From Candidatus Micrarchaeia archaeon (GTDB lineage Archaea; Micrarchaeota; Micrarchaeia; Anstonellales; Bilamarchaeaceae): 62,010 nucleotides of DNA. The notes beneath the pieces are model-generated. The model was not told the origin of the DNA, did not search any database, and saw nothing but the letters and a program-made list of their open reading frames with translations. Shown here one piece after another: positions 35,429 to 43,858 of this stretch (position 1 is the first letter of the stretch; each line of letters begins with the position of its first letter). Location of the stretch: assembly GCA_033853355.1 (NCBI GenBank), contig JAWOLP010000003.1, positions 1-62,010 of the forward strand, in the 5' to 3' direction. Made by a program: the position numbers and the translations under genes.

Positions 35429-38400
35429 TTGGGAACCCCTAACATGAGGCCGGAAGAAGCTGCGAGAGATGCAGACGCGGCCATCGCGCAGCAGCTGCGC
35501 CCCCAGGCGCGCGCGGTCGTCCCCCAGCTCACCCCCTCCGGCTTCGCCTCGCGCGCGGACGAGCAGGTCGGCTCGCTCTCGCAGCACGCGTCCTCGCTCG
35601 GGCGCACGCTCCCCTCACGGATCACGGACGTCGGCGCATTCCTCGCCTCAGAGCCGCTGCGCTCGGCACGAGCGGGCCTGGAGCAGGGCATCGGCATGAT
35701 GCAGGGCACGGTCACCTCCAACCCGCCGCTCGATCCGTCGGTCTTCTTCCCGAACCGCCTGGAGCGGTCGGCCTTCCTCCGCGACGGCTCCCCATTCCTG
35801 ATCATCGACCCGGCCCACGACGCCCGGTTCGCCGACTTCCTGTCCGGGAGGAGCGGCTCGTACCGCGGAAGCGGGCGGGCGGAGTCTGAGTGGGTGGCCG
35901 CGCACGCGGCGGAGCTGGAGCGGCGGGGCATCCGGGTGGAGCGGGGCCAGGGCGACTCGTTCACGCTCACGAACGGCGCCTTCGACCGCTCGCTCTCGGG
36001 AGGCGTCCTCAGCGGGCCGGACTTCGAGCGGTTCATCGCGGCAGGGGTGCCCTCGATCAGCGGGGAGGATCCGGCCAAGGCGAGATGGCTCTCGGAGCAC
36101 GCGGACATCCTCATCGAGCACGGGATCGACGTGCAGGTCGAGGGGAACCGCTTCACGCTGCGGAACAGCGGATTCCGCACCATCGGAGTGGACCCTTCCC
36201 AGTTCGAGGGCAGCGGCTTCCGCGGCACCGCCTTCGACTCGTTCGTCGACGGCCGCGCCCCGACGTTCGAGGGCAACAACCTCGCCCAGGCCAGATGGAT
36301 AGCCGAGCGCCAGCAGCAGCTCATGCAGTCGGGGATACACGTCTACCTTTCCCTGAACCAGCGGGGGGAGCCCAGCGGGCGCTTCGTCCTCCAGAACACA
36401 GCCTTCCTGCCTCCATCGGCCGGCACGTCCCAGCGCGAGGCCCTCTCGAGGAGCCTCGACGACGCGCGGGCCGATATGGGGATGGCCGACACCTACTTCG
36501 CCCGGGCCGGGGAGCTGTGGCGGACCGGGAGGCCGCAGGATCAGCAGCGGGCGAGGGAGCTCGCGTCCGCCGGCATGCAGCTGATAGACCGGGCGCAGCG
36601 CCTCCTCGGCTCGGTCGCCGCGTATGTCGAGACCTCGAGGGTCGTCTATGACCGGCGCGCCGAGATCGAGTCCCTCCCGCCCGACGAGAAGCGCCGCTGC
36701 CTCTCGCTGATAGAGAACGCCGACGCCCTCATCGCGCAGAGCCGGACCGCGGACGACGCCGCGGCGCGCATCGAATACACGCGCCGCGCCGGTTTCCTCC
36801 TCCAGATGGTCGGCGCGACCCTCTATCTCCGCCAGACCGAAGGCATGCTCCCCCCGCAGGTCCGCACCGATGCCGCAGGCTTCCTCAGCTCGGCGATGGA
36901 CATCTATTCGCAGGGCACCTCCGATTCCCTCGAACGGGCGTCCTTCATGCTGGGCCAGGCGAACTCCTTCCTGACGTTCTCGATAGAGCGGGCCGGCATC
37001 CAGGCCCAGTACGACGAAGTCCGGAACCTCGACGCCTACGTGGACGTCACGAGGATGCCGCTATTCCAGACGTCCGGGCGCTTCGACGAGGAAAAGTTCC
37101 AGAGGCTCACCGGCGTGACGTACGCGCAGTACCGGGACGGCATACGCGGCCAGAGCCGGAGGGGGATCGCCACGGTGGCCGCGGCCCTCTACCGCCGCTC
37201 CCTCGACCATTACGACTCCGCGCTCGCGGAGATGCGTGGGCTGATCGCATACTCGGCCGCGAACGAGACGCCGGACAACGGCAGGGTCAGGGCGTCGCTG
37301 GAGACGATCCAGCGCGAGCACGAGATAGGCAGCCTCAACTTCGTCCGGACCGCGCAGCTGGATCCCCTGATATCGTCCGCCCGGACGCTGTCCTCGGTCG
37401 TCCAGCGCCTTCCGACCGAGCGCGACATCGGCGCCCTCTACATGAGCGCGGAAGGGTCGGCCGAGCTGCGCGACTCGCGCGCCGCGGCGATGCGGGCGTA
37501 CTCGCGCGAGCTCGGCACGATAAGCGCCGGCTTCCTCTACCTGCTCTCGGCCCAGAACTCCGAGGGGGCGGAGCGCGAGTCGCTTGAAGGCTCCGCGCGG
37601 GCGGTCCTCTCAAGGGCCGGGGCCGAGAACCAGGCATTCATGGACGCGGCCAACGCGTTCAACGACATGTTCAGCAAGACCTCCTCGTTCATCGCGCACG
37701 TGCAGGGCTCGCTCCTCGACGGGGAGACCGCGTCGCTCTATGGCGAAGAGCTCCTGAGGATCGGGGGCGACCACCTGCAGCAGCTCCTGCAGAACCCGGA
37801 CCTCTCCCGCCCGTATTTCCTGCGCGCCGTGACGGACCCGTCGTTCCTGCCCAGCCTCCCTCACCGCGACGAGCTGATGAGCAACGTCACGCGGCTCGGA
37901 AGGGGCGACCGCCAGAACGCGATCGCGATACTGACAGCCCTCTACGACCCGAACGCGACGCCCGAGCAGGTCCGCAACGCGCTCGGCCTGCTCTCCGCCG
38001 GCGAGATGACGATCGAGACCGCGGCGATGCCGCCCGGGGGGATGCCCCCCGAAGGGATGTCTCGCGAGGACCGCATGCGCGAGTACGGGACCGTCACCAG
38101 GGCTATGCCGGTCCTCGATGCGCTGCGCGAGGTGAACCCGGAGCTCGCGGCGCGGTTCGAGAGGATGCGGGAGCATCCGGAGAGCTTCTCGATCGACCAG
38201 CGCAGGGAGCTGATACTCGCTCTCGTGCGCATGGTCGGCGACGAGCCTGTGAACCGCGCCCTAGACCACATCGAGACATACCTCCGGGACACGTTCAGGG
38301 AAGTCTTCACGGCCCACGCGCAGGACCTCTACGACCGCGCGCGGAACATGGAGCCGAACGCGAGAGGCATGCAGGAAGACGCGAGGCTGATCCTCTCCCG

Positions 38401-41400
38401 CCTGCGGCCCAGCGACATCACGATAAACCGCAGCGGCGGAAGGACCACCGTCGAGCTCGCGGACCCATTGGCCCGCGACGCATACGCGAGGCTCATGGAC
38501 GGCGCCGCAGCCGTGCAGTCCATACCGGAGGAGATGGCGAGCCTCGTGCCCAGGCTGATGGAGAGGCTCGGTCCGGTCTCGCGCGAGGCCGCCACGCGCG
38601 TGGCGGACGCGGAGAGGATATACCAGGAGAGGGTCGACGAGGCCGAGGCGCGGAGAAGGACGATAATCGTCTGCGCGGTCATCGGCGGCCTCATCGCGGC
38701 GCCATTCACCGGCGGCATGAGCGTCTGGGCGGCTGTGGGGACCATAAGCCTGGGCGTCGGGATAGGGATGGGGATCCCCTCGGTCGCCTTCGCGGTGGAG
38801 GATTACGTGAAGGTCAGGGACGACCCGAATGCCACGCCCGAGCAGGTGTCCGCGGCCCGCAACCACATGTGGCGCGAGATCGGGTTCAACGCGGTGATGC
38901 TGCTCCCGGTCGTCGGCCAGGCCGGGCGGGCATGGGCCGTCGGCCGTGGGCTCTTCACGCTGGCGCGGATAGGGTACGGCCTCGAGATCGCCGGAGGCAT
39001 AGGCATGGTCGGCTTCGGCGCATACCAGACGTACGAGGGCGTCCAGATGATCCGGCATGGCGATACCGGCTGGGGGATATTCAACGCGGCCACCGGGGCG
39101 CTGTTCATGTTCGGAGGCGCCCATGCGGCGTACAGCGGCGCGCGGAGCTGGGGATCCCTCGGCAGGCTCGCGCCGGCCATGCTCGCTCCGGAGGCCATAG
39201 CCAGGGACGTCACAGCGCTGGAGGAAGGGGCGGCGGCTTTCCGGCGAGTGGCCGCGGGCGAGCAAATCTCGATCTCCGCCGACCGGCTCGCCGAGATCAA
39301 TGCGGCCGGCCGCAGGCTCAGGGACATGGTGCAGGCTGGGATGCGGCTCGAGCCGGCCCAGATGCAGGCCCTCAACGCGTACCGCGCCCTCATGGAGGTC
39401 CAGCCTGCCAGGGACCTGCGCACCTTGCGGACGATGAGCGAAGGCACCTCGTTCCGGCGGGCGGCGCGCGGGGCTTACGAGACGATCCTGCGGAGGAACC
39501 GGCTCGCCTCGACCGAGGAATTCGTCGATGCGATAGCGGCGAGGGACCGCCTGCGCGCGCTGGGCCGCATCCGGCCGAACACGCCGGCCGAGGCCGAAGC
39601 CCTCAGGAACTTCGACCGCTACGTCGCGGCCCAGGCGAACACGGACGCCCAGGCGCTCTCCTCGTTCGGCCAGAGGGTGAGGGCGGGGGGCGCTCCGCTC
39701 AGCGTGGGCGAAATCGCGGCGGCGCGCACGGCATACGACCGGCTCTCGCTCGGCGTGCAGGAGGCCGGGACGGCGACGCCCCAGCAGGTCGCCGCGATGC
39801 GGGCCTACCGCACCGCGATGAGCGAGGTCGGCCGCTCGAGGATGGCGCAGGACGCGCAGGGGCTCGCCTCGGGGATAGCCCCCGCGATCGAGGCGACGAC
39901 CGACTCGCAGGAGATCGCGCGCTCGGTCATACGGGCGAGGCTCCTCCGCGGCGACGGCGAGTTCCTCATCCCAGGCGAGACGATCGCGGGCTACCGGCTG
40001 AGCGTGGGCGACATAGAGGGCGAGATACGCGCCCTGGGCCGGGATTTCGCCCTCAGCGGGAATCCCCAGCAGGTGCTCACGATCGCGGGCGACAAGCAGC
40101 TCCTCAACCAGATAAACGACGTGTTCGGCAGGGATGGCGGCAACGTCTCGCTGTCGCTCTACCGCTCGGCGATCCAGGACGGGGTCGGCTCGTCCATCCG
40201 CGGCATGCGGGGGGCCCGCGCCTTCTTCGTGCGCTCCGCCGAGAGCGGGGACGAGGTCACCGTCTACATAATGGGCCGCAACCTGCGCGGGCTCGACCCG
40301 GCCGCGGTGTCCAGGTCGCTCGAGGAGGCGACCGGATCCGTGGCGGCTCAGGCGGCGGCCGCGCGGATAAGGGGCGACGTCACCCTCGCGGACGCGTTCG
40401 AGAGGTGGACGGGCAGCAGGGACGTCCGGCTTTTCGTGAGCGGGGATTTCAGGTTCTCCTCAGTCGAGGATTTCACGCTCGCCGCTTCGATGGACGAGAG
40501 CTCGCTGACCAGGATGGTGACGCATGCCGAGGAGATCCCGACCTACCGGCGCGTGGCGGACTCGCTCAACCTGAGCCCTGACGCGGTCGCTGCCGAGATA
40601 CGCATGCCGGCCGGGACCACGAGCGCGATAACCGATGCCGAAGTGAGGAGGAACGCGGCCGCGCTGGCCGGAGGGGAAGAGAGCTTCAGCCGCCTCCCGC
40701 CCGCCGACCAGACCGCATACCTGCGCGAGGCCCGCAGCAGGATAACGTTCCAGTCGGCCGACGCGGTGGAGTTCAGGTTCACGATCACCGATCCGGCGGC
40801 CCAGGCGGTCGTGCGGCAGGAGATGGCGACGGCCACCAGGAAAGCCTACGCCGAAGTGGCCACGAACTCGTTCGCTGGCACCGGGCTGAACACCTTCCTG
40901 GGCCACCCCCGCGCGAACGCGATCTACAATGCGCGCAACGACGCGATAGCGTCGGTGGTGCAGGCCGGGCTTCCGGACGGCGTGAGGATCAGGACGTTCG
41001 GCAATTTCGGGCCGGTCCTCATCGAAGGCGGCACGCCGGTCCAGCGCCTGTCGGTCATGCGGAGCATCGAGCAGGCGACGCGGGCCAACCTCAGGTCGCT
41101 GGCTGCGGGAGGGAGGAGCCTCGGGCTCGACGTCCAGGTGGTCGGCGTGAGCATAAGCGCGCCGATGAACTACGATTCCATAAGCGCCGCGCTCATCTCC
41201 AGCCGTCTGGGCATCGGCCACACCGTGAGCCTGCCCTCCCTGGAGAGCGCGACTTTCGGGATAGGGTTCATCCGCGGGCCTCGGGGGCTGTCCGATTTCG
41301 CCCACCTCGACCGCCTCAGCGACCGCATCTACGGCGACCTGATGGCGGCCGTGCCGGAGGCTTCGAGGGCCAGGTACCCCAGCATGCAGGAGTTCGCCGA

Positions 41401-43858
41401 GATACGCTCGATCGCGCGGGCGAACCCGTCCATCCGGAACGCGGAGGCGATGCTCGCCTACCTACGGGCGAACAACCCCTCCCTTTTCGGGAAATACCTC
41501 GCTTTCGTCGAAGAGCAGGGCGGGGAGTTCGCAGCCAGGGCCAGGACGGCGATCGGGCTGCCCATACCGCAGGCGACGCCGGTGACCGTCCTCGCCAGGG
41601 AAGCGAGGCCGCTCTCGACGCGCACGCCGGCCGAGATCCAGGCCGACCTCGAGCCGCGCATACGCGCGCAGATGGACGGCGTGAGCGGCGTGCAGAGGAC
41701 GCAGGTCACGGTGACGAGGGACCGGATAAGCATCCAGAACGAGGCCGGAGAGAGCGTGCCTGCGGAGCGGACCCGCGCGCACGTCGAGCTCTTCGCGCGC
41801 GACGGCAGATCCCTGGGCGTGGCGGAATTCGAGGTGGTCCCTGCCGCCGACGGCGAGGGCGTCGCGTTCTTCCACCGCGTGGAGCTCGATCCGTCGGTCC
41901 GCGGCCAGAGGATCGCGGAGCGGCTCAGCGACGCGATGGAGGATTCGCTGCGGGGCATGGGCATACATCGCTACGTCCTCCGCGCGGAGCGCGATGGCCT
42001 GACCTACTGGCCCTCACAAGGATACCAATGGGTCGGGAACGAAGGCGGGCTAAGGGCTGTCGACCGGACCGCGAACGCCCCCCTCACATGGGAAGGCGGC
42101 TCGCCGATCCTCGATTACCAGGCCGGCGGAAGGACCCAGCCGGGCATGTTCCGCAGGTGGCTCAGCACGCCCGAGGGCCAGGCGTGGCGGCCGCCTCACA
42201 ACCAGTCGGTCGAGGAGTTCATGCGGCTGGCCGGCGACAACCTCGCCAACTACCCTTACGATTTCACGCTCTACCTCGGAAGCCAGGGAGTGGACAACAT
42301 CCAGATGAAGTTCGTGAGGTGGGCATTCGAGACCGGCTGGGCGCCCCACGCGAGATTCGATCCATGGTTTTTCCTGCGGTTCAACGGCAACAACCCCCAA
42401 TTCTATCCGGACGAGTTCCTGCTTTTCCTGGGCACCAGGGAAAACAGCATCCGCGGCATCCAGCAGAGGTTCGTGGAATGGGCCTCCCACAACAACTGGC
42501 GCAGCGCCACCGGCGAGGCCGCAGACGCGTTCGCCGCCCGCGCGGGCTACCGCCTCAGCCTCTATCCGCCGGAATTCCGGCTCTCCATAGCGAGGGAGGT
42601 GCCGTACACCAGGCCGGCCGTGATCACCGAACTGCCCGCGGACCTGCACGGGATGCCGGCCGAGTTCGCGCATCTGCGCGTTGACCCGGTCCATGGAAGG
42701 CAGCCGGTCCGCCTCCTGCGGCCAATCGATTCGGTCAACGGCTCCTCGGGGGTCGTCTACCTGGGCGAGATGGAATTCGAGGGACGTACGGTGCAGGTGG
42801 CGGTCAAGATATACCGCGACGCGATCGACTCCAGCATACGCTCCACAGTGAATTACACGACCAGGCTTTACCAGCGCTACCTCGCCGCACGGGCCGCGAA
42901 TCCAGCGAACTGGGCCGCCGCAGCGCAGATGAGCCGCGAGGACACGGAGATCATCGGAGAGGTGCTCAGGAGGATGACGGGCGGCCGCACGGCCGAGCAG
43001 GCGATTTTCGAGGCGGCGACCGTGAGGGAATGGGGACAGTCCAGGGCCGCCAAGCTGTTCGGCGAAGTTCAGCGCGCGGAGACGGCCGCACGCCTCGGCA
43101 TCGGGCCGAGGGTGATGGGCCTTGTCGACGTGGGCAACGGGAACATGGCGTTCGCGATGGAGCGGGTCGTCGGAGTCGACCGCGCGGAGATGTCCGTGGA
43201 CCAGCTGTCCAGGATAGCCAGGCAGAACGGCATAAGCCTGCCCGAGCAGCTGGACCGGACGATGAGATCGCTCGCGGAAGCGGAATCAGCCCTCGCCAGG
43301 GACGAGGGCAGGGTGGACGCGTCGGGGGTGCGCGTCGGGTACGACGTGGGAGACTTCCAGTTCGCCGTCCTGACCCGCAGGCAGTTCATAAACGGCAGGT
43401 GGCGCGAGCCGGGCGATGTCGTCGTATGGGACGTGAGCGGCTTGAAAGAGATCCAGGTGCCGGACGAGGCCGCGGTGGGCCGGCGCGTTTCCGCGAGGGT
43501 CGTCGAGGAGAGGGCGAGCCTCGAGGGGAATCTCGGAGCGACATACTTCAGGGAAAACATCGGCGCGAGGGGCACCGCGCTGCAGGATCCGTACCTCCAG
43601 GCACTCGTGCTATCCGCGACCGGCAGGCCGGCTTTCGACGCCGACGCGTTCCGGGCCTTCGTGGAGATCGGCAGCAGCCAGCAGGAGAGGCAGCGGGCGG
43701 TCAGCGCGATAATCACCGACACTGCCAGGACGGACCCGGCACGCGCGGCCCGGATGTTCCAGGCCCTCCGGCGGGCGGAGGCCGAGTCCGGAGTCAGGAT
43801 AATACCGCAAAACGTCACCTTCGCGCAGATTTCGTCCTCGCGAGCTCCGGCCCCCTGA
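35429..43858 (+). CDS. Giant (2,809 aa) multi-domain membrane protein with GGDEF-like, GNAT-like and kinase-like modules
   Basis: An uninterrupted 8,430-nt ORF. The TTG at 35429 has a GAGGTG Shine-Dalgarno element 6 nt upstream; the first ATG is at 35444. Domain evidence is given in separate entries. Confidence 0.9.
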   Translation: MGTPNMRPEEAARDADAAIAQQLRPQARAVVPQLTPSGFASRADEQVGSLSQHASSLGRTLPSRITDVGAFLASEPLRSARAGLEQGIGMMQGTVTSNPPLDPSVFFPNRLERSAFLRDGSPFLIIDPAHDARFADFLSGRSGSYRGSGRAESEWVAAHAAELERRGIRVERGQGDSFTLTNGAFDRSLSGGVLSGPDFERFIAAGVPSISGEDPAKARWLSEHADILIEHGIDVQVEGNRFTLRNSGFRTIGVDPSQFEGSGFRGTAFDSFVDGRAPTFEGNNLAQARWIAERQQQLMQSGIHVYLSLNQRGEPSGRFVLQNTAFLPPSAGTSQREALSRSLDDARADMGMADTYFARAGELWRTGRPQDQQRARELASAGMQLIDRAQRLLGSVAAYVETSRVVYDRRAEIESLPPDEKRRCLSLIENADALIAQSRTADDAAARIEYTRRAGFLLQMVGATLYLRQTEGMLPPQVRTDAAGFLSSAMDIYSQGTSDSLERASFMLGQANSFLTFSIERAGIQAQYDEVRNLDAYVDVTRMPLFQTSGRFDEEKFQRLTGVTYAQYRDGIRGQSRRGIATVAAALYRRSLDHYDSALAEMRGLIAYSAANETPDNGRVRASLETIQREHEIGSLNFVRTAQLDPLISSARTLSSVVQRLPTERDIGALYMSAEGSAELRDSRAAAMRAYSRELGTISAGFLYLLSAQNSEGAERESLEGSARAVLSRAGAENQAFMDAANAFNDMFSKTSSFIAHVQGSLLDGETASLYGEELLRIGGDHLQQLLQNPDLSRPYFLRAVTDPSFLPSLPHRDELMSNVTRLGRGDRQNAIAILTALYDPNATPEQVRNALGLLSAGEMTIETAAMPPGGMPPEGMSREDRMREYGTVTRAMPVLDALREVNPELAARFERMREHPESFSIDQRRELILALVRMVGDEPVNRALDHIETYLRDTFREVFTAHAQDLYDRARNMEPNARGMQEDARLILSRLRPSDITINRSGGRTTVELADPLARDAYARLMDGAAAVQSIPEEMASLVPRLMERLGPVSREAATRVADAERIYQERVDEAEARRRTIIVCAVIGGLIAAPFTGGMSVWAAVGTISLGVGIGMGIPSVAFAVEDYVKVRDDPNATPEQVSAARNHMWREIGFNAVMLLPVVGQAGRAWAVGRGLFTLARIGYGLEIAGGIGMVGFGAYQTYEGVQMIRHGDTGWGIFNAATGALFMFGGAHAAYSGARSWGSLGRLAPAMLAPEAIARDVTALEEGAAAFRRVAAGEQISISADRLAEINAAGRRLRDMVQAGMRLEPAQMQALNAYRALMEVQPARDLRTLRTMSEGTSFRRAARGAYETILRRNRLASTEEFVDAIAARDRLRALGRIRPNTPAEAEALRNFDRYVAAQANTDAQALSSFGQRVRAGGAPLSVGEIAAARTAYDRLSLGVQEAGTATPQQVAAMRAYRTAMSEVGRSRMAQDAQGLASGIAPAIEATTDSQEIARSVIRARLLRGDGEFLIPGETIAGYRLSVGDIEGEIRALGRDFALSGNPQQVLTIAGDKQLLNQINDVFGRDGGNVSLSLYRSAIQDGVGSSIRGMRGARAFFVRSAESGDEVTVYIMGRNLRGLDPAAVSRSLEEATGSVAAQAAAARIRGDVTLADAFERWTGSRDVRLFVSGDFRFSSVEDFTLAASMDESSLTRMVTHAEEIPTYRRVADSLNLSPDAVAAEIRMPAGTTSAITDAEVRRNAAALAGGEESFSRLPPADQTAYLREARSRITFQSADAVEFRFTITDPAAQAVVRQEMATATRKAYAEVATNSFAGTGLNTFLGHPRANAIYNARNDAIASVVQAGLPDGVRIRTFGNFGPVLIEGGTPVQRLSVMRSIEQATRANLRSLAAGGRSLGLDVQVVGVSISAPMNYDSISAALISSRLGIGHTVSLPSLESATFGIGFIRGPRGLSDFAHLDRLSDRIYGDLMAAVPEASRARYPSMQEFAEIRSIARANPSIRNAEAMLAYLRANNPSLFGKYLAFVEEQGGEFAARARTAIGLPIPQATPVTVLAREARPLSTRTPAEIQADLEPRIRAQMDGVSGVQRTQVTVTRDRISIQNEAGESVPAERTRAHVELFARDGRSLGVAEFEVVPAADGEGVAFFHRVELDPSVRGQRIAERLSDAMEDSLRGMGIHRYVLRAERDGLTYWPSQGYQWVGNEGGLRAVDRTANAPLTWEGGSPILDYQAGGRTQPGMFRRWLSTPEGQAWRPPHNQSVEEFMRLAGDNLANYPYDFTLYLGSQGVDNIQMKFVRWAFETGWAPHARFDPWFFLRFNGNNPQFYPDEFLLFLGTRENSIRGIQQRFVEWASHNNWRSATGEAADAFAARAGYRLSLYPPEFRLSIAREVPYTRPAVITELPADLHGMPAEFAHLRVDPVHGRQPVRLLRPIDSVNGSSGVVYLGEMEFEGRTVQVAVKIYRDAIDSSIRSTVNYTTRLYQRYLAARAANPANWAAAAQMSREDTEIIGEVLRRMTGGRTAEQAIFEAATVREWGQSRAAKLFGEVQRAETAARLGIGPRVMGLVDVGNGNMAFAMERVVGVDRAEMSVDQLSRIARQNGISLPEQLDRTMRSLAEAESALARDEGRVDASGVRVGYDVGDFQFAVLTRRQFINGRWREPGDVVVWDVSGLKEIQVPDEAAVGRRVSARVVEERASLEGNLGATYFRENIGARGTALQDPYLQALVLSATGRPAFDADAFRAFVEIGSSQQERQRAVSAIITDTARTDPARAARMFQALRRAEAESGVRIIPQNVTFAQISSSRAPAP
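35822..36405 (+). repeat. Three tandem ~55-aa protein repeats at the N-terminus of giant ORF 2
   Basis: ARFADFLSGRSGSYRGSGRAESEWVAAHAAELERRGIRVERGQGDSFTLTNGAF / PDFERFIAAGVPSISGEDPAKARWLSEHADILIEHGIDVQVEGNRFTLRNSGF / TAFDSFVDGRAPTFEGNNLAQARWIAERQQQLMQSGIHVYL...GRFVLQNTAF. Confidence 0.7.
38650..39170 (+). other. Transmembrane module of giant ORF 2 (AAPxTGGxS motif)
   Basis: RRRTIIVCAVIGGLIAAPFTGGMSVWAAVGTISLGVGIGMGIPSVAF ... FNAVMLLPVVGQAG ... YGLEIAGGIGMVGFGAY ... GIFNAATGALFMFGGAHAAY, about 4-6 hydrophobic helices. Confidence 0.65.
39955..40450 (+). other. GGDEF/palm-type nucleotide-cyclase-like module (degenerate signature SGDEV)
   Basis: LTIAGDKQLLNQINDVFGRDGGNVSL (40075-40146) matches the D-x5/6-IND-x-FG-x-D-x-G-[DN]-x-x-L block of GGDEF domains. 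FFVRSAESGDEVTVYIMG (40223-40276) occupies the R-x-GG[DE]EF-x-h-h-h position. Confidence 0.4.
41650..42040 (+). other. GNAT-like acetyltransferase module
   Basis: GVAFFHRVELDPSVRGQRIAERLSDAMEDSLRGMGIHRYVLRAERDGLTYWPSQGYQW fits GNAT motif A (R/Q-x-x-G-x-G/A followed by a helix) and motif B. Confidence 0.45.
42710..43460 (+). other. Protein-kinase-like (PKL) domain of giant ORF 2, homologous to K1 of giant ORF 1
   Basis: GSSGVVYLGEMEFEGRTVQVAVKIYRD, NMAFAMERVVG, VGDFQFAVL and GDVVVWDVSGL are colinear with VAVKVFKD / AIAMDLLPG / HDFQFIV / GDVVLMDAGG. Confidence 0.55.

What the first reader, a model, noticed from the sequence alone, without database searches (positions are those of the whole stretch)
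39955..40450. A GGDEF-like nucleotide-cyclase module with the altered signature SGDEV inside giant 2
LTIAGDKQLLNQINDVFGRDGGNVSLSLY reproduces the first conserved GGDEF block (metal-binding Asp, then IND-x-FG-x-D-x-G-[DN]-x-x-L). FFVRSAESGDEVTVYIMG sits where R-x-GG(D/E)EF-h-h-h is expected. To my knowledge GGDEF domains are uncommon in archaea. Fusing one to a GNAT-like and a kinase-like domain on a membrane giant would be an unusual signalling combination. The altered signature could mean a changed substrate or product, a degenerate receptor domain, or a chance resemblance.
Basis: partly seen in the sequence, partly recalled or inferred. Interest (0 to 1): 0.6.

Follow-up and report, generated by a model that had tools for sequence, protein, structure and literature searches.

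The report
Divergent GGDEF-like two-palm cyclase module
A giant membrane protein of a tiny symbiotic archaeon (Micrarchaeota) carries a real but very divergent relative of the bacterial c-di-GMP synthase domain with its catalytic residues intact. It is fused to a catalytically dead second copy, and the pair defines an unannotated enzyme family that probably makes a nucleotide-derived signal.

Summary
Both quoted motifs are present in frame in the 2809-aa ORF at 35429-43858 (+), at aa 1550-1578 and 1599-1616.

The window's own sequence gets no Pfam GGDEF hit. A family profile does link the module to GGDEF:
- Profile-profile comparison (hhalign) against GGDEF domains of related archaea gives probability 95% and P 2.8e-8. 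Decoy alignments give P of 0.03 or worse.
- The best PDB sequence hit is the diguanylate cyclase DosC (E 9e-4).
- The AlphaFold2 model (pLDDT 92) has GGDEF cyclase domains as its top 16 Foldseek hits.
- 15 of 40 relatives give weak Pfam GGDEF hits.

The catalytic Asp at the end of strand β1 (D1555) and the hairpin Asp-Glu (D1608/E1609) are invariant across the family. The hairpin is two residues longer than in RxGGDEF. In this copy the second guanine-reading Asp is Asn (N1572).

The pair is a fixed unit of roughly 500 aa. It occurs in about 70 clusters of DPANN archaeal proteins, both giants and stand-alone proteins of about 550 aa, one of them in this genome.

It most likely acts as an intramolecular two-palm nucleotidyl cyclase or transferase. 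The product is unknown and no activity has been shown. Canonical GGDEF domains are common in this phylum (58 of 151 genomes).

The parts
35429..43858 (+). Giant 2: a 2809-aa ORF. The database copy starts at M6, nt 35444. It contains only 12 Lys against 308 Arg.
   Evidence: 100% identical 2804-aa database protein; 48% identical 2698-aa homologue; Lys count
38654..38800 (+). Hydrophobic transmembrane cluster (aa 1076-1124). Weaker Gly-rich hydrophobic stretches follow, to about aa 1290 by eye.
   Evidence: Kyte-Doolittle scan
39962..40492 (+). Module A: a divergent GGDEF-type palm domain (aa 1512-1688), predicted to be catalytic.
   Evidence: AF2 pLDDT 92.3, pTM 0.87, secondary structure β-α-β-β-α-β. 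Foldseek top 16 hits are GGDEF domains. hhalign probability 95%. DosC E 9e-4.
40088..40153 (+). β1-end and helix motif GDKQLLNQINDVFGRDGGNVSL. D1555 is the metal-binding Asp (63/63). K1556 is conserved in 61/63 and N1563 in 61/63. In G1571-N1572, position 1572 is Asp in 46/63 family members and Asn in 10/63, including this copy.
40232..40258 (+). β2-β3 hairpin RSAESGDEV (aa 1602-1610). R1602 is conserved in 58/63 and D1608-E1609 in 61/61. The hairpin is two residues longer than in RxGGDEF.
   Evidence: A Pfam-recognised GGDEF of a relative (RKGKGADEF) has the same two-residue insertion.
40493..40756 (+). Mostly helical linker between the two palms (aa 1689-1776).
   Evidence: AF2 model of the tandem unit
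40757..41206 (+). Module B: a second palm-like domain (aa 1777-1926), catalytically dead. N1813 sits where the metal-binding Asp would be, and GNFGP replaces GGDEF. It keeps invariant K1805 (70/70) and N1821 (71/71), plus G1825 and N1830.
   Evidence: hhalign against GGDEF P 1.1e-3 in the expected register. DosC matches this region weakly (E 0.44). AF2 secondary structure β-α-α-β-β-α-β. Conservation.
41231..41515 (+). C-terminal helical bundle of the conserved unit (aa 1935-2029).
   Evidence: AF2. An identical 249-nt metatranscriptome contig lies at 41195-41443.
41792..41980 (+). GNAT acetyltransferase-like segment (aa 2122-2184) downstream in the same protein. Context only.
   Evidence: Pfam PF00583, E 2.6e-4, 21.7 bits against a cut-off of 20.7

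Best explanation
Residues about 1512-1688 of giant 2 form a genuine but highly divergent palm domain of the GGDEF superfamily. It keeps the two-metal catalytic carboxylates: D1555 at the end of β1 and D1608/E1609 on the β2-β3 hairpin. It also keeps the first base-reading Asn (N1563).

It is the first half of a conserved unit of roughly 500 residues. The second half (aa 1777-1926) is a paralogous palm-like domain that has lost the carboxylates but keeps its own invariant Lys and Asn residues.

Inference: the two palms pack into an intramolecular pseudo-heterodimer, as in Cas10 or the C1-C2 pair of mammalian adenylyl cyclase. Module A would bind the NTP-Mg donor. Module B would supply the acceptor or complementary half of the site. 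The unit would then make a nucleotide-derived product, a cyclic or linear di- or oligonucleotide. That product is not necessarily c-di-GMP, because the Asp that reads guanine (PleD D344) is Asn here.

Shown here: homology, predicted fold, residue conservation and the fixed tandem architecture. Inferred: catalytic activity, the division of labour between the palms and the product.
For: Homology of module A to GGDEF:
- hhalign of the 40-sequence module A alignment against 31 GGDEF domains of the same phylum gives probability 95.2% and P 2.8e-8 over 95 columns. D1555 aligns to the first Asp of DxD, and D-E to the D-E of GGDEF. Decoys give P of 0.03 or worse.
- In a profile search of 177,635 distinct PDB sequences, the best hit is the DosC GGDEF domain (E 9.2e-4), and other diguanylate cyclases follow.
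- The AF2 model has pLDDT 92.3 and pTM 0.87. Foldseek ranks 1-16 are all GGDEF cyclases with probability 0.95-1.00.
- Pfam GGDEF is the only family that recurs among relatives: 15 of 40, best E 5.8e-4.
- The family profile hits Pfam-recognised GGDEF domains in related genomes, for example G049:C8 at E 1.8e-8. That domain shares the two-residue longer hairpin.

Selection on function:
- D1555 is conserved in 63/63, D and E in 61/61, N1563 in 61/63 and K1556 in 61/63 at 16-25% overall identity. In module B the Lys is conserved in 70/70 and the Asn in 71/71.
- Giant 2 has only 12 Lys in 2809 residues. Two of them are exactly these family-invariant Lys, K1556 and K1805.

Tandem unit:
- The distance between the two motifs is 220-307 residues in all 60 proteins that have both.
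- AF2 of aa 1505-2030 gives pLDDT 88.6 and pTM 0.85.
- Foldseek's best hits for the unit are the two-palm proteins Cas10/Cmr2 and adenylyl cyclase 8 C1-C2.
Against: - No enzymatic activity has been measured for any member of the family.
- The Pfam GGDEF model misses the window copy entirely.
- Structural similarity is moderate: TM 0.40-0.47 and Foldseek E about 1e-3.
- The match to GGDEF ends after helix α3. The C-terminal GGDEF helix that carries the phosphate-binding Lys/Arg of PleD was therefore not identified.
- Evidence that module B is a palm is weaker: hhalign probability 20%, P 1e-3; A against B gives P 0.027.
- The Cas10 and adenylyl cyclase matches have TM of only about 0.2. I could not inspect model coordinates, so the claim that the two palms face each other rests only on the pTM value.
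- No EAL or PilZ partner was found in this 76%-complete genome.
Confidence: 0.65

Rival explanations
1. Module A is a conventional diguanylate cyclase. Two giant proteins, or two A modules, would dimerise A to A to make c-di-GMP. Module B would be only a regulatory or scaffolding appendage.
For: Most family members keep both guanine-reading residues, Asn at +8 and Asp at +17 (46/63). A/SGDEF variants are known to be active cyclases (PMC13725321, section 2.4). The genome and phylum use canonical GGDEF proteins.
Against: The window copy has Asn, not Asp, at +17. Module B co-occurs with A at fixed spacing in all 60 proteins where both were found, and it has invariant residues of its own, which argues for a direct role. 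The C-terminal half of the GGDEF domain is not recognisably conserved. No EAL or PilZ was found in this genome.
Confidence: 0.15
2. The module is a non-catalytic nucleotide-binding or purely structural palm, that is, a degenerate receptor domain like many inactive GGDEF domains.
For: The Pfam model fails on it. The signature is altered to SGDEV with a longer hairpin, and the guanine-reading Asp is replaced. Inactive GGDEF domains are known in Micrarchaeota regulators (earlier scan note e1-2922302, not checked here).
Against: All three catalytic carboxylates are invariant across about 60 very divergent sequences, which degenerate receptor domains usually do not maintain. The protein is almost Lys-free yet keeps the family-invariant Lys next to the catalytic Asp. 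The clearly dead copy, module B, shows what degeneration looks like in this same family.
Confidence: 0.15
3. It is a Cas10-like or minimal-CRISPR-polymerase-like oligoadenylate synthase or template-independent polymerase, rather than a GGDEF-type dinucleotide cyclase.
For: Foldseek's best hits for the whole tandem unit are Cas10/Cmr2/Csm1 chains (E 1e-3 to 1e-2). Cas10 also pairs one active and one degenerate palm.
Against: The sequence and profile signal points specifically to GGDEF. No Cas10, mCpol or class III cyclase Pfam family appears even weakly among the 40 members, and there are no PADLOC defence-model hits. TM scores to Cas10 are about 0.2. The active palm comes first here and second in Cas10. 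The stand-alone copy sits in a housekeeping gene block, not a defence island.
Confidence: 0.05

Closest known systems
GGDEF diguanylate cyclase domains (Pfam PF00990; e.g. E. coli DosC, PleD, WspR, T. maritima TM1788)
   Same: Palm fold with the Asp at the end of β1 and the acidic pair on the β2-β3 hairpin. Gap-free match of the D...h..hN...G...G[DN]..L block. Conserved Arg before the hairpin. Best sequence-profile and structural matches.
   Different: Below Pfam detection. Has an invariant Lys directly after the catalytic Asp in place of a hydrophobic residue. The hairpin is two residues longer and reads [S/G]DE rather than GGDEF. The C-terminal part does not align to GGDEF. No RxxD inhibitory site precedes the motif in the sequence. 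Always fused to a dead second palm. Asn replaces the guanine-reading Asp in this copy.
Cas10 (Cmr2/Csm1) of type III CRISPR systems
   Same: One polypeptide with two GGDEF-related palm domains, one active and one degenerate. Top Foldseek hits for the tandem unit.
   Different: Domain order is reversed: the active palm is first here. There are no Pfam Cas10 hits or PADLOC hits, the signature is not GGDD, and TM is only about 0.2.
Mammalian membrane adenylyl cyclases (C1-C2 pseudo-heterodimer, e.g. AC8, PDB 8bv5)
   Same: Membrane-anchored protein in which the first cyclase-fold domain carries the metal-binding carboxylates and a second, carboxylate-less paralogue completes the unit. Foldseek rank 4 for the tandem unit.
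   Different: A different branch of palm cyclases (class III). There is no Pfam Guanylate_cyc signal and the match has a low TM score.
GGDEF domains inside bacterial giant proteins (Omnitrophota 'Archaeovorins', Actinobacteria; bioRxiv 10.1101/2023.11.21.568195)
   Same: A cyclase-type domain embedded among many enzyme modules of a giant protein in an ultra-small, host-dependent organism.
   Different: Those are bacterial domains that the paper annotates as GGDEF, with pilZ genes next to them. This one is archaeal, below Pfam detection, tandem with a dead copy, and no PilZ was found in the genome.

Membership tests
GGDEF domain (Pfam PF00990) | Scores above the Pfam gathering threshold (23.8 bits) | tested here: not met
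   No GGDEF hit at E up to 10 for the whole protein, a 566-aa segment or the 185-aa module. 15 of 40 relatives give sub-threshold hits, best E 5.8e-4.
GGDEF domain (Pfam PF00990) | Ferredoxin-like palm with the signature motif on the β2-β3 hairpin | tested here: met
   AF2 pLDDT 92.3. β1 spans aa 1547-1556 and ends at D1555-K1556. SGDE lies between strands aa 1597-1602 and 1609-1616. Foldseek top 16 hits are GGDEF structures.
GGDEF domain (Pfam PF00990) | Metal-binding Asp at the end of β1 (PleD D327) | tested here: met
   D1555 aligns to the first Asp of DxD in hhalign and is conserved in 63/63 family members.
GGDEF domain (Pfam PF00990) | GG[D/E]EF signature two residues after a conserved Arg | tested here: inconclusive
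   The sequence is R1602-SAE-SGDEV. The D-E pair is retained (61/61), the first Gly is Ser (A/SGDEF variants are active per PMC13725321), Phe is Val, and there is a two-residue insertion. A Pfam-positive GGDEF in a relative has the same insertion.
GGDEF domain (Pfam PF00990) | Guanine-reading Asn and Asp (PleD N335, D344; residue numbers from my own knowledge) | tested here: inconclusive
   N1563 is present (61/63 in the family). Position +17 is N1572 in the window; across the family it is Asp in 46, Asn in 10 and Glu in 3.
GGDEF domain (Pfam PF00990) | C-terminal helix with phosphate-binding Lys/Arg (PleD K442, R446; from my own knowledge) | tested here: not met
   The hhalign and HMMER alignments stop after helix α3, at template column 109 of 160. 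No equivalent motif was recognised.
GGDEF domain (Pfam PF00990) | Diguanylate cyclase activity | not testable with these tools
   Needs a biochemical assay.
Cas10-type two-palm polymerase/cyclase | Two palm domains in one chain, one active and one degenerate | tested here: met
   Module A is described above. Module B against GGDEF gives hhalign P 1.1e-3 in register, with a palm-like secondary-structure order in AF2. Cas10 chains are the top Foldseek hits for the unit. Support for module B is weaker than for A.
Cas10-type two-palm polymerase/cyclase | GGDD motif in the second palm and sequence membership in Cas10 families | tested here: not met
   The active motif is in the first palm. No Cas10 or mCpol Pfam hit appears among the 40 members and there are no PADLOC hits.
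Cas10-type two-palm polymerase/cyclase | Encoded within a type III CRISPR-Cas locus | not tested
   The neighbours I examined are another giant gene, HEAT-repeat, DHH/GAN and ProRS genes. No CRISPR array scan was run.
Class III nucleotidyl cyclases (Pfam PF00211) | Sequence or structural membership | tested here: not met
   No Pfam hit. Class III cyclases appear only from Foldseek rank 26, at E of 0.05 or worse.

The most novel reading that the evidence does not exclude
The A+B unit founds a DPANN-archaeal second-messenger or effector-nucleotide synthase family. It would be a GGDEF-derived, Cas10-like intramolecular pseudo-heterodimer that makes a product other than c-di-GMP. It would be used both as a vertically inherited stand-alone enzyme and as a payload module of nearly lysine-free giant proteins that act on the host cell.
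Probability: 0.25. Interest if true: 0.8.

Novelty: new variant of a known kind. Interest (0 to 1): 0.6.

Why it matters
c-di-GMP signalling has long been treated as essentially bacterial. Only in 2026 were archaeal GGDEF proteins shown to have cyclase activity (PMC13725321).

This module shows that Micrarchaeota also carry a second, much more divergent GGDEF-derived lineage. Pfam, NCBIfam and PADLOC all miss it. It has the active-plus-dead two-palm layout otherwise known from Cas10 and from animal adenylyl cyclases.

If it is active, it offers three things:
- a candidate new nucleotide-signal synthase;
- a directly testable enzymatic handle on the function of the unexplained giant proteins of ultra-small symbiotic archaea;
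- an intermediate form for thinking about how two-palm cyclases arise from GGDEF-like ancestors.

Tried and rejected
- Pfam on the whole giant and on a 566-aa segment gave no GGDEF hit. This shows how divergent the module is, but it is not evidence against homology once profiles are used.
- A first PDB profile search with only 4 sequences gave DosC at E 0.82, not significant. It improved to 9e-4 with 40 sequences.
- phmmer of the C-terminal 730 aa against PDB found nothing useful.
- hhalign of module A against module B was weak (P 0.027). The claim that B is a paralogue of A therefore rests on B's own weak match to GGDEF and on the AF2 fold.
- The search for related loci with the 36-sequence alignment failed for lack of a conserved stretch. 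With the 4-sequence alignment it found one Micrarchaeota contig.
- PADLOC and NCBIfam gave no hits.
- EAL and PilZ searches in the own genome found none.
- Conserved neighbours of the stand-alone paralogue are housekeeping genes (Cbf5/TruB, cytidylate kinase-like, EMC3/TMCO1-like) plus two small proteins without Pfam hits. They give no functional clue.
- The 'Immunity 23 family protein' PDB hit (E 0.028) covers only the YR...SDE stretch, and I treated it as spurious.
- Chance resemblance was rejected on the decoy test.
Full report
**Observation.** Its translation contains both quoted strings. LTIAGDKQLLNQINDVFGRDGGNVSLSLY is aa 1550-1578 (nt 40076-40162), and FFVRSAESGDEVTVYIMG is aa 1599-1616 (nt 40223-40276).

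An identical 2804-aa protein and a 48% identical 2698-aa homologue exist in public protein collections. The region is assembled in four soil-metagenome runs. In the run I laid on it there are only base substitutions, and none falls in the motifs. Flanking genes show the organism is an archaeon: DUF373, a DHH-CID GAN-type nuclease and an archaeal-type ProRS. Named relatives are Candidatus Micrarchaeota and 'Ca. ainarchaeum'. The genome held is 1.47 Mb and 76% complete.

**Is it GGDEF-like?** Pfam finds no GGDEF domain in the protein or in the excised segment, even at E up to 10. A word-indexed homologue search found only three relatives. An exhaustive HMMER search of 1.84 billion representative proteins, using a four-sequence profile of aa 1495-1905, found 72. 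They are giants of up to 7300 aa and a class of proteins of 480-630 aa.

All relatives carry the same two blocks. In a 40-sequence alignment of the first block, the invariant columns are D51, K52, D104 and E105. These are D1555, K1556, D1608 and E1609 in the giant.

Six independent lines link this block to GGDEF:
- A profile from the alignment finds the GGDEF domain of E. coli DosC as its best hit among 177,635 PDB sequences (E 9.2e-4). The match spans both motifs, and other diguanylate cyclases follow.
- I built a GGDEF alignment from 31 Pfam-positive domains of the same phylum. Profile-profile comparison gives probability 95.2% and P 2.8e-8 over 95 columns. A reversed decoy gives P 0.034, and 20 column-shuffled decoys give P of 0.11 or worse.
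- The window segment alone gives P 4e-4 against the same alignment.
- The alignment is gap-free from D1555 to L1575. D1555 lies on the first Asp of DxD, N1563 on the Asn of IND, G1571-N1572 on GD, and D1608-E1609 on the D-E of GGDEF. The only difference is a two-residue insertion after the conserved Arg.
- Among the 40 members scanned individually, GGDEF is the only recurrent Pfam family: 15 members, best E 5.8e-4. No other family hits more than two.
- The family profile recovers Pfam-positive GGDEF domains in related genomes, for example G049:C8 at E 1.8e-8. That domain has the hairpin RKGKGADEF, with the same two-residue insertion, so it looks like an intermediate form.

**Structure.** AlphaFold2 on the 40-sequence alignment gives a confident model of aa 1505-1689 (pLDDT 92.3, pTM 0.87). 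Strand β1 ends at D1555-K1556, a long helical segment follows, and SGDE sits on the hairpin between two strands, followed by helix-strand elements. Foldseek against the PDB ranks GGDEF diguanylate cyclase domains 1 to 16 (E 1e-3 to 1.6e-2, probability 0.95-1.00, TM 0.35-0.47). Class III adenylyl cyclases and a Cas10 follow further down. The fold is a GGDEF-type palm, but with real deviations, especially in the C-terminal part, which also does not align at sequence level.

**A second, dead palm.** About 266 residues downstream lies a second conserved block: TRKAYAEVATNSFAGTGLNTFLGHPRANAIY ... RIRTFGNFGPVLIEGG. Its core keeps the same spacing (N at +8, G at +12, H at +13, A-N at +16/+17). However, N1813 replaces the metal-binding Asp and GNFGP replaces GGDEF.
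- hhalign against GGDEF places it in exactly that register, but weakly (probability 20%, P 1.1e-3).
- A PDB profile search also matches DosC to this region, at E 0.44.
- Its own invariant residues are K1805 (70/70) and N1821 (71/71), plus G1825 and N1830.
- The distance between the two blocks is 220-307 residues in all 60 proteins that have both, so the pair is a fixed unit.
- AlphaFold2 of aa 1505-2030 gives pLDDT 88.6 and pTM 0.85. The second domain has a β-α-α-β-β-α-β order and is followed by a helical bundle.
- Foldseek's best matches for the whole unit are the two-palm proteins: Cas10/Cmr2, type III-D Cas10, Csm1 and the C1-C2 catalytic unit of adenylyl cyclase 8. Their E values are 1e-3 to 1e-2, but TM is only about 0.2.

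I could not access model coordinates. The mutual orientation of the two palms is therefore inferred only from the high pTM value.

**Evidence for function in this copy.** Across 63 aligned members at 16-25% identity:

| Residue | Conservation |
|---|---|
| D1555 | 63/63 |
| K1556 | 61/63 |
| N1563 | 61/63 |
| G1571 | 61/63 |
| R1602 | 58/63 |
| D1608, E1609 | 61/61 |
| Position 1572 | Asp 46, Asn 10 (window included), Glu 3 |

Giant 2 is extraordinarily poor in lysine, with 12 Lys against 308 Arg in 2809 residues. Two of those 12 are exactly the family-invariant K1556 and K1805, and a third is the VAVK lysine of the kinase-like domain. That is strong evidence of purifying selection on these positions.

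One 249-nt metatranscriptome contig, identical in sequence, lies inside the unit at 41195-41443. This is weak evidence of transcription, because DNA carry-over cannot be excluded.

**Distribution and context.** In 151 genomes sampled from the phylum, the module A profile matches in 19. Four of these matches are canonical GGDEF domains, so about 15 genomes carry the family. Canonical GGDEF occurs in 58 of the 151 and once in this genome, as a GGEEF protein on contig C10. The premise that GGDEF is rare in archaea therefore does not hold for this lineage. A 2026 paper reports diguanylate cyclase activity for archaeal GGDEF proteins, including ones from DPANN MAGs, and notes that A/SGDEF variants are active (PMC13725321).

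This genome also has a stand-alone 583-aa A+B protein on contig C45. In four genomes of the family it sits in a syntenic block with Cbf5/TruB, a cytidylate-kinase-like gene and an EMC3/TMCO1-like membrane protein. That points to vertical inheritance rather than a mobile defence island. PADLOC and NCBIfam do not recognise the unit. No EAL or PilZ domain was found in this incomplete genome.

In giant 2 the unit lies after the hydrophobic cluster at aa 1076-1124 and before a GNAT-like segment. A kinase-like domain follows; it was not tested here and comes from an earlier scan note.

**Mechanism proposed.** Module A binds NTP-Mg through D1555 and D1608/E1609. N1563 and N1572 read the base. The invariant K1556 probably contacts the phosphates or the leaving group. 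Module B cannot bind catalytic metals but keeps a conserved helix-borne Asn/Asn and a Lys. It would provide the acceptor-nucleotide or complementary half of a single composite cleft, as in Cas10 or adenylyl cyclase C1-C2. The product would be a cyclic or linear di- or oligonucleotide.

Homology, predicted fold, conservation and the tandem architecture are shown here. Activity, the role of module B and the product are inferred.

**Rivals.** Three remain:
- a conventional A-A dimer making c-di-GMP, with B regulatory;
- a non-catalytic binding domain, disfavoured by the invariant carboxylates;
- a Cas10-like oligoadenylate synthase, disfavoured because the sequence signal is specific to GGDEF and there is no defence context.

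Chance resemblance is excluded.

**Earlier scan notes.** I consulted these after the homology tests (partly) and at the end. They describe the same tandem cassette in other Micrarchaeota proteins and agree with this reading. They are AI notes, not independent evidence.

**Verdict.** The module is best filed as a new, unannotated variant within the GGDEF palm superfamily, not as a Pfam GGDEF member. Its active-plus-dead tandem layout is the most interesting feature.

Noticed in passing
window 35429-43858: Giant 2 is almost lysine-free, with 12 Lys against 308 Arg in 2809 aa. The surviving Lys include the invariant Lys of both palm modules (K1556, K1805) and the VAVK Lys (K2460) of the kinase-like domain.
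   Followed up: partly
own genome G000:C45:45864-47615 (L043 3864-5615, minus strand): A stand-alone 583-aa paralogue of the A+B unit. In four related genomes it lies in a conserved block with Cbf5/TruB, a cytidylate-kinase-like gene and an EMC3/TMCO1-like membrane protein. Two adjacent conserved small proteins (184 and 186 aa) have no Pfam hits.
   Followed up: partly
own genome G000:C10:23074-23577 (L001): A canonical GGEEF protein (345 aa; Pfam GGDEF E 6.7e-38) is encoded in the same genome. Canonical GGDEF is present in 58 of 151 genomes sampled from the phylum.
   Followed up: partly
L052 513-1343 (G049:C8), minus strand: A 276-aa Pfam-positive GGDEF protein of a related archaeon has the hairpin RKGKGADEF, with the same two-residue insertion as the new family. 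It is the canonical domain best hit by the family profile (E 1.8e-8), so it may be an evolutionary intermediate.
   Followed up: partly
window 14000-46000: The block holding the two divergent giant genes has higher G+C (0.65-0.70) than the flanks (0.58-0.62).
   Followed up: no
window 41195-41443: A 249-nt contig from a soil metatranscriptome run is identical to this stretch of giant 2. This is weak evidence that the gene is transcribed.
   Followed up: partly
window 37814 / 43419 and 38469 / 38854: Contigs of one DNA run join these distant positions, skipping 5604 and 384 bases, with only 24-30 matching letters on the shorter side. This is probably assembly noise or a paralogue from a related strain.
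   Followed up: no
window 12685-33033 (minus strand): Giant 1 (6782 aa) does not contain the palm module. The family profile matched only giant 2 and the C45 paralogue in this genome.
   Followed up: yes
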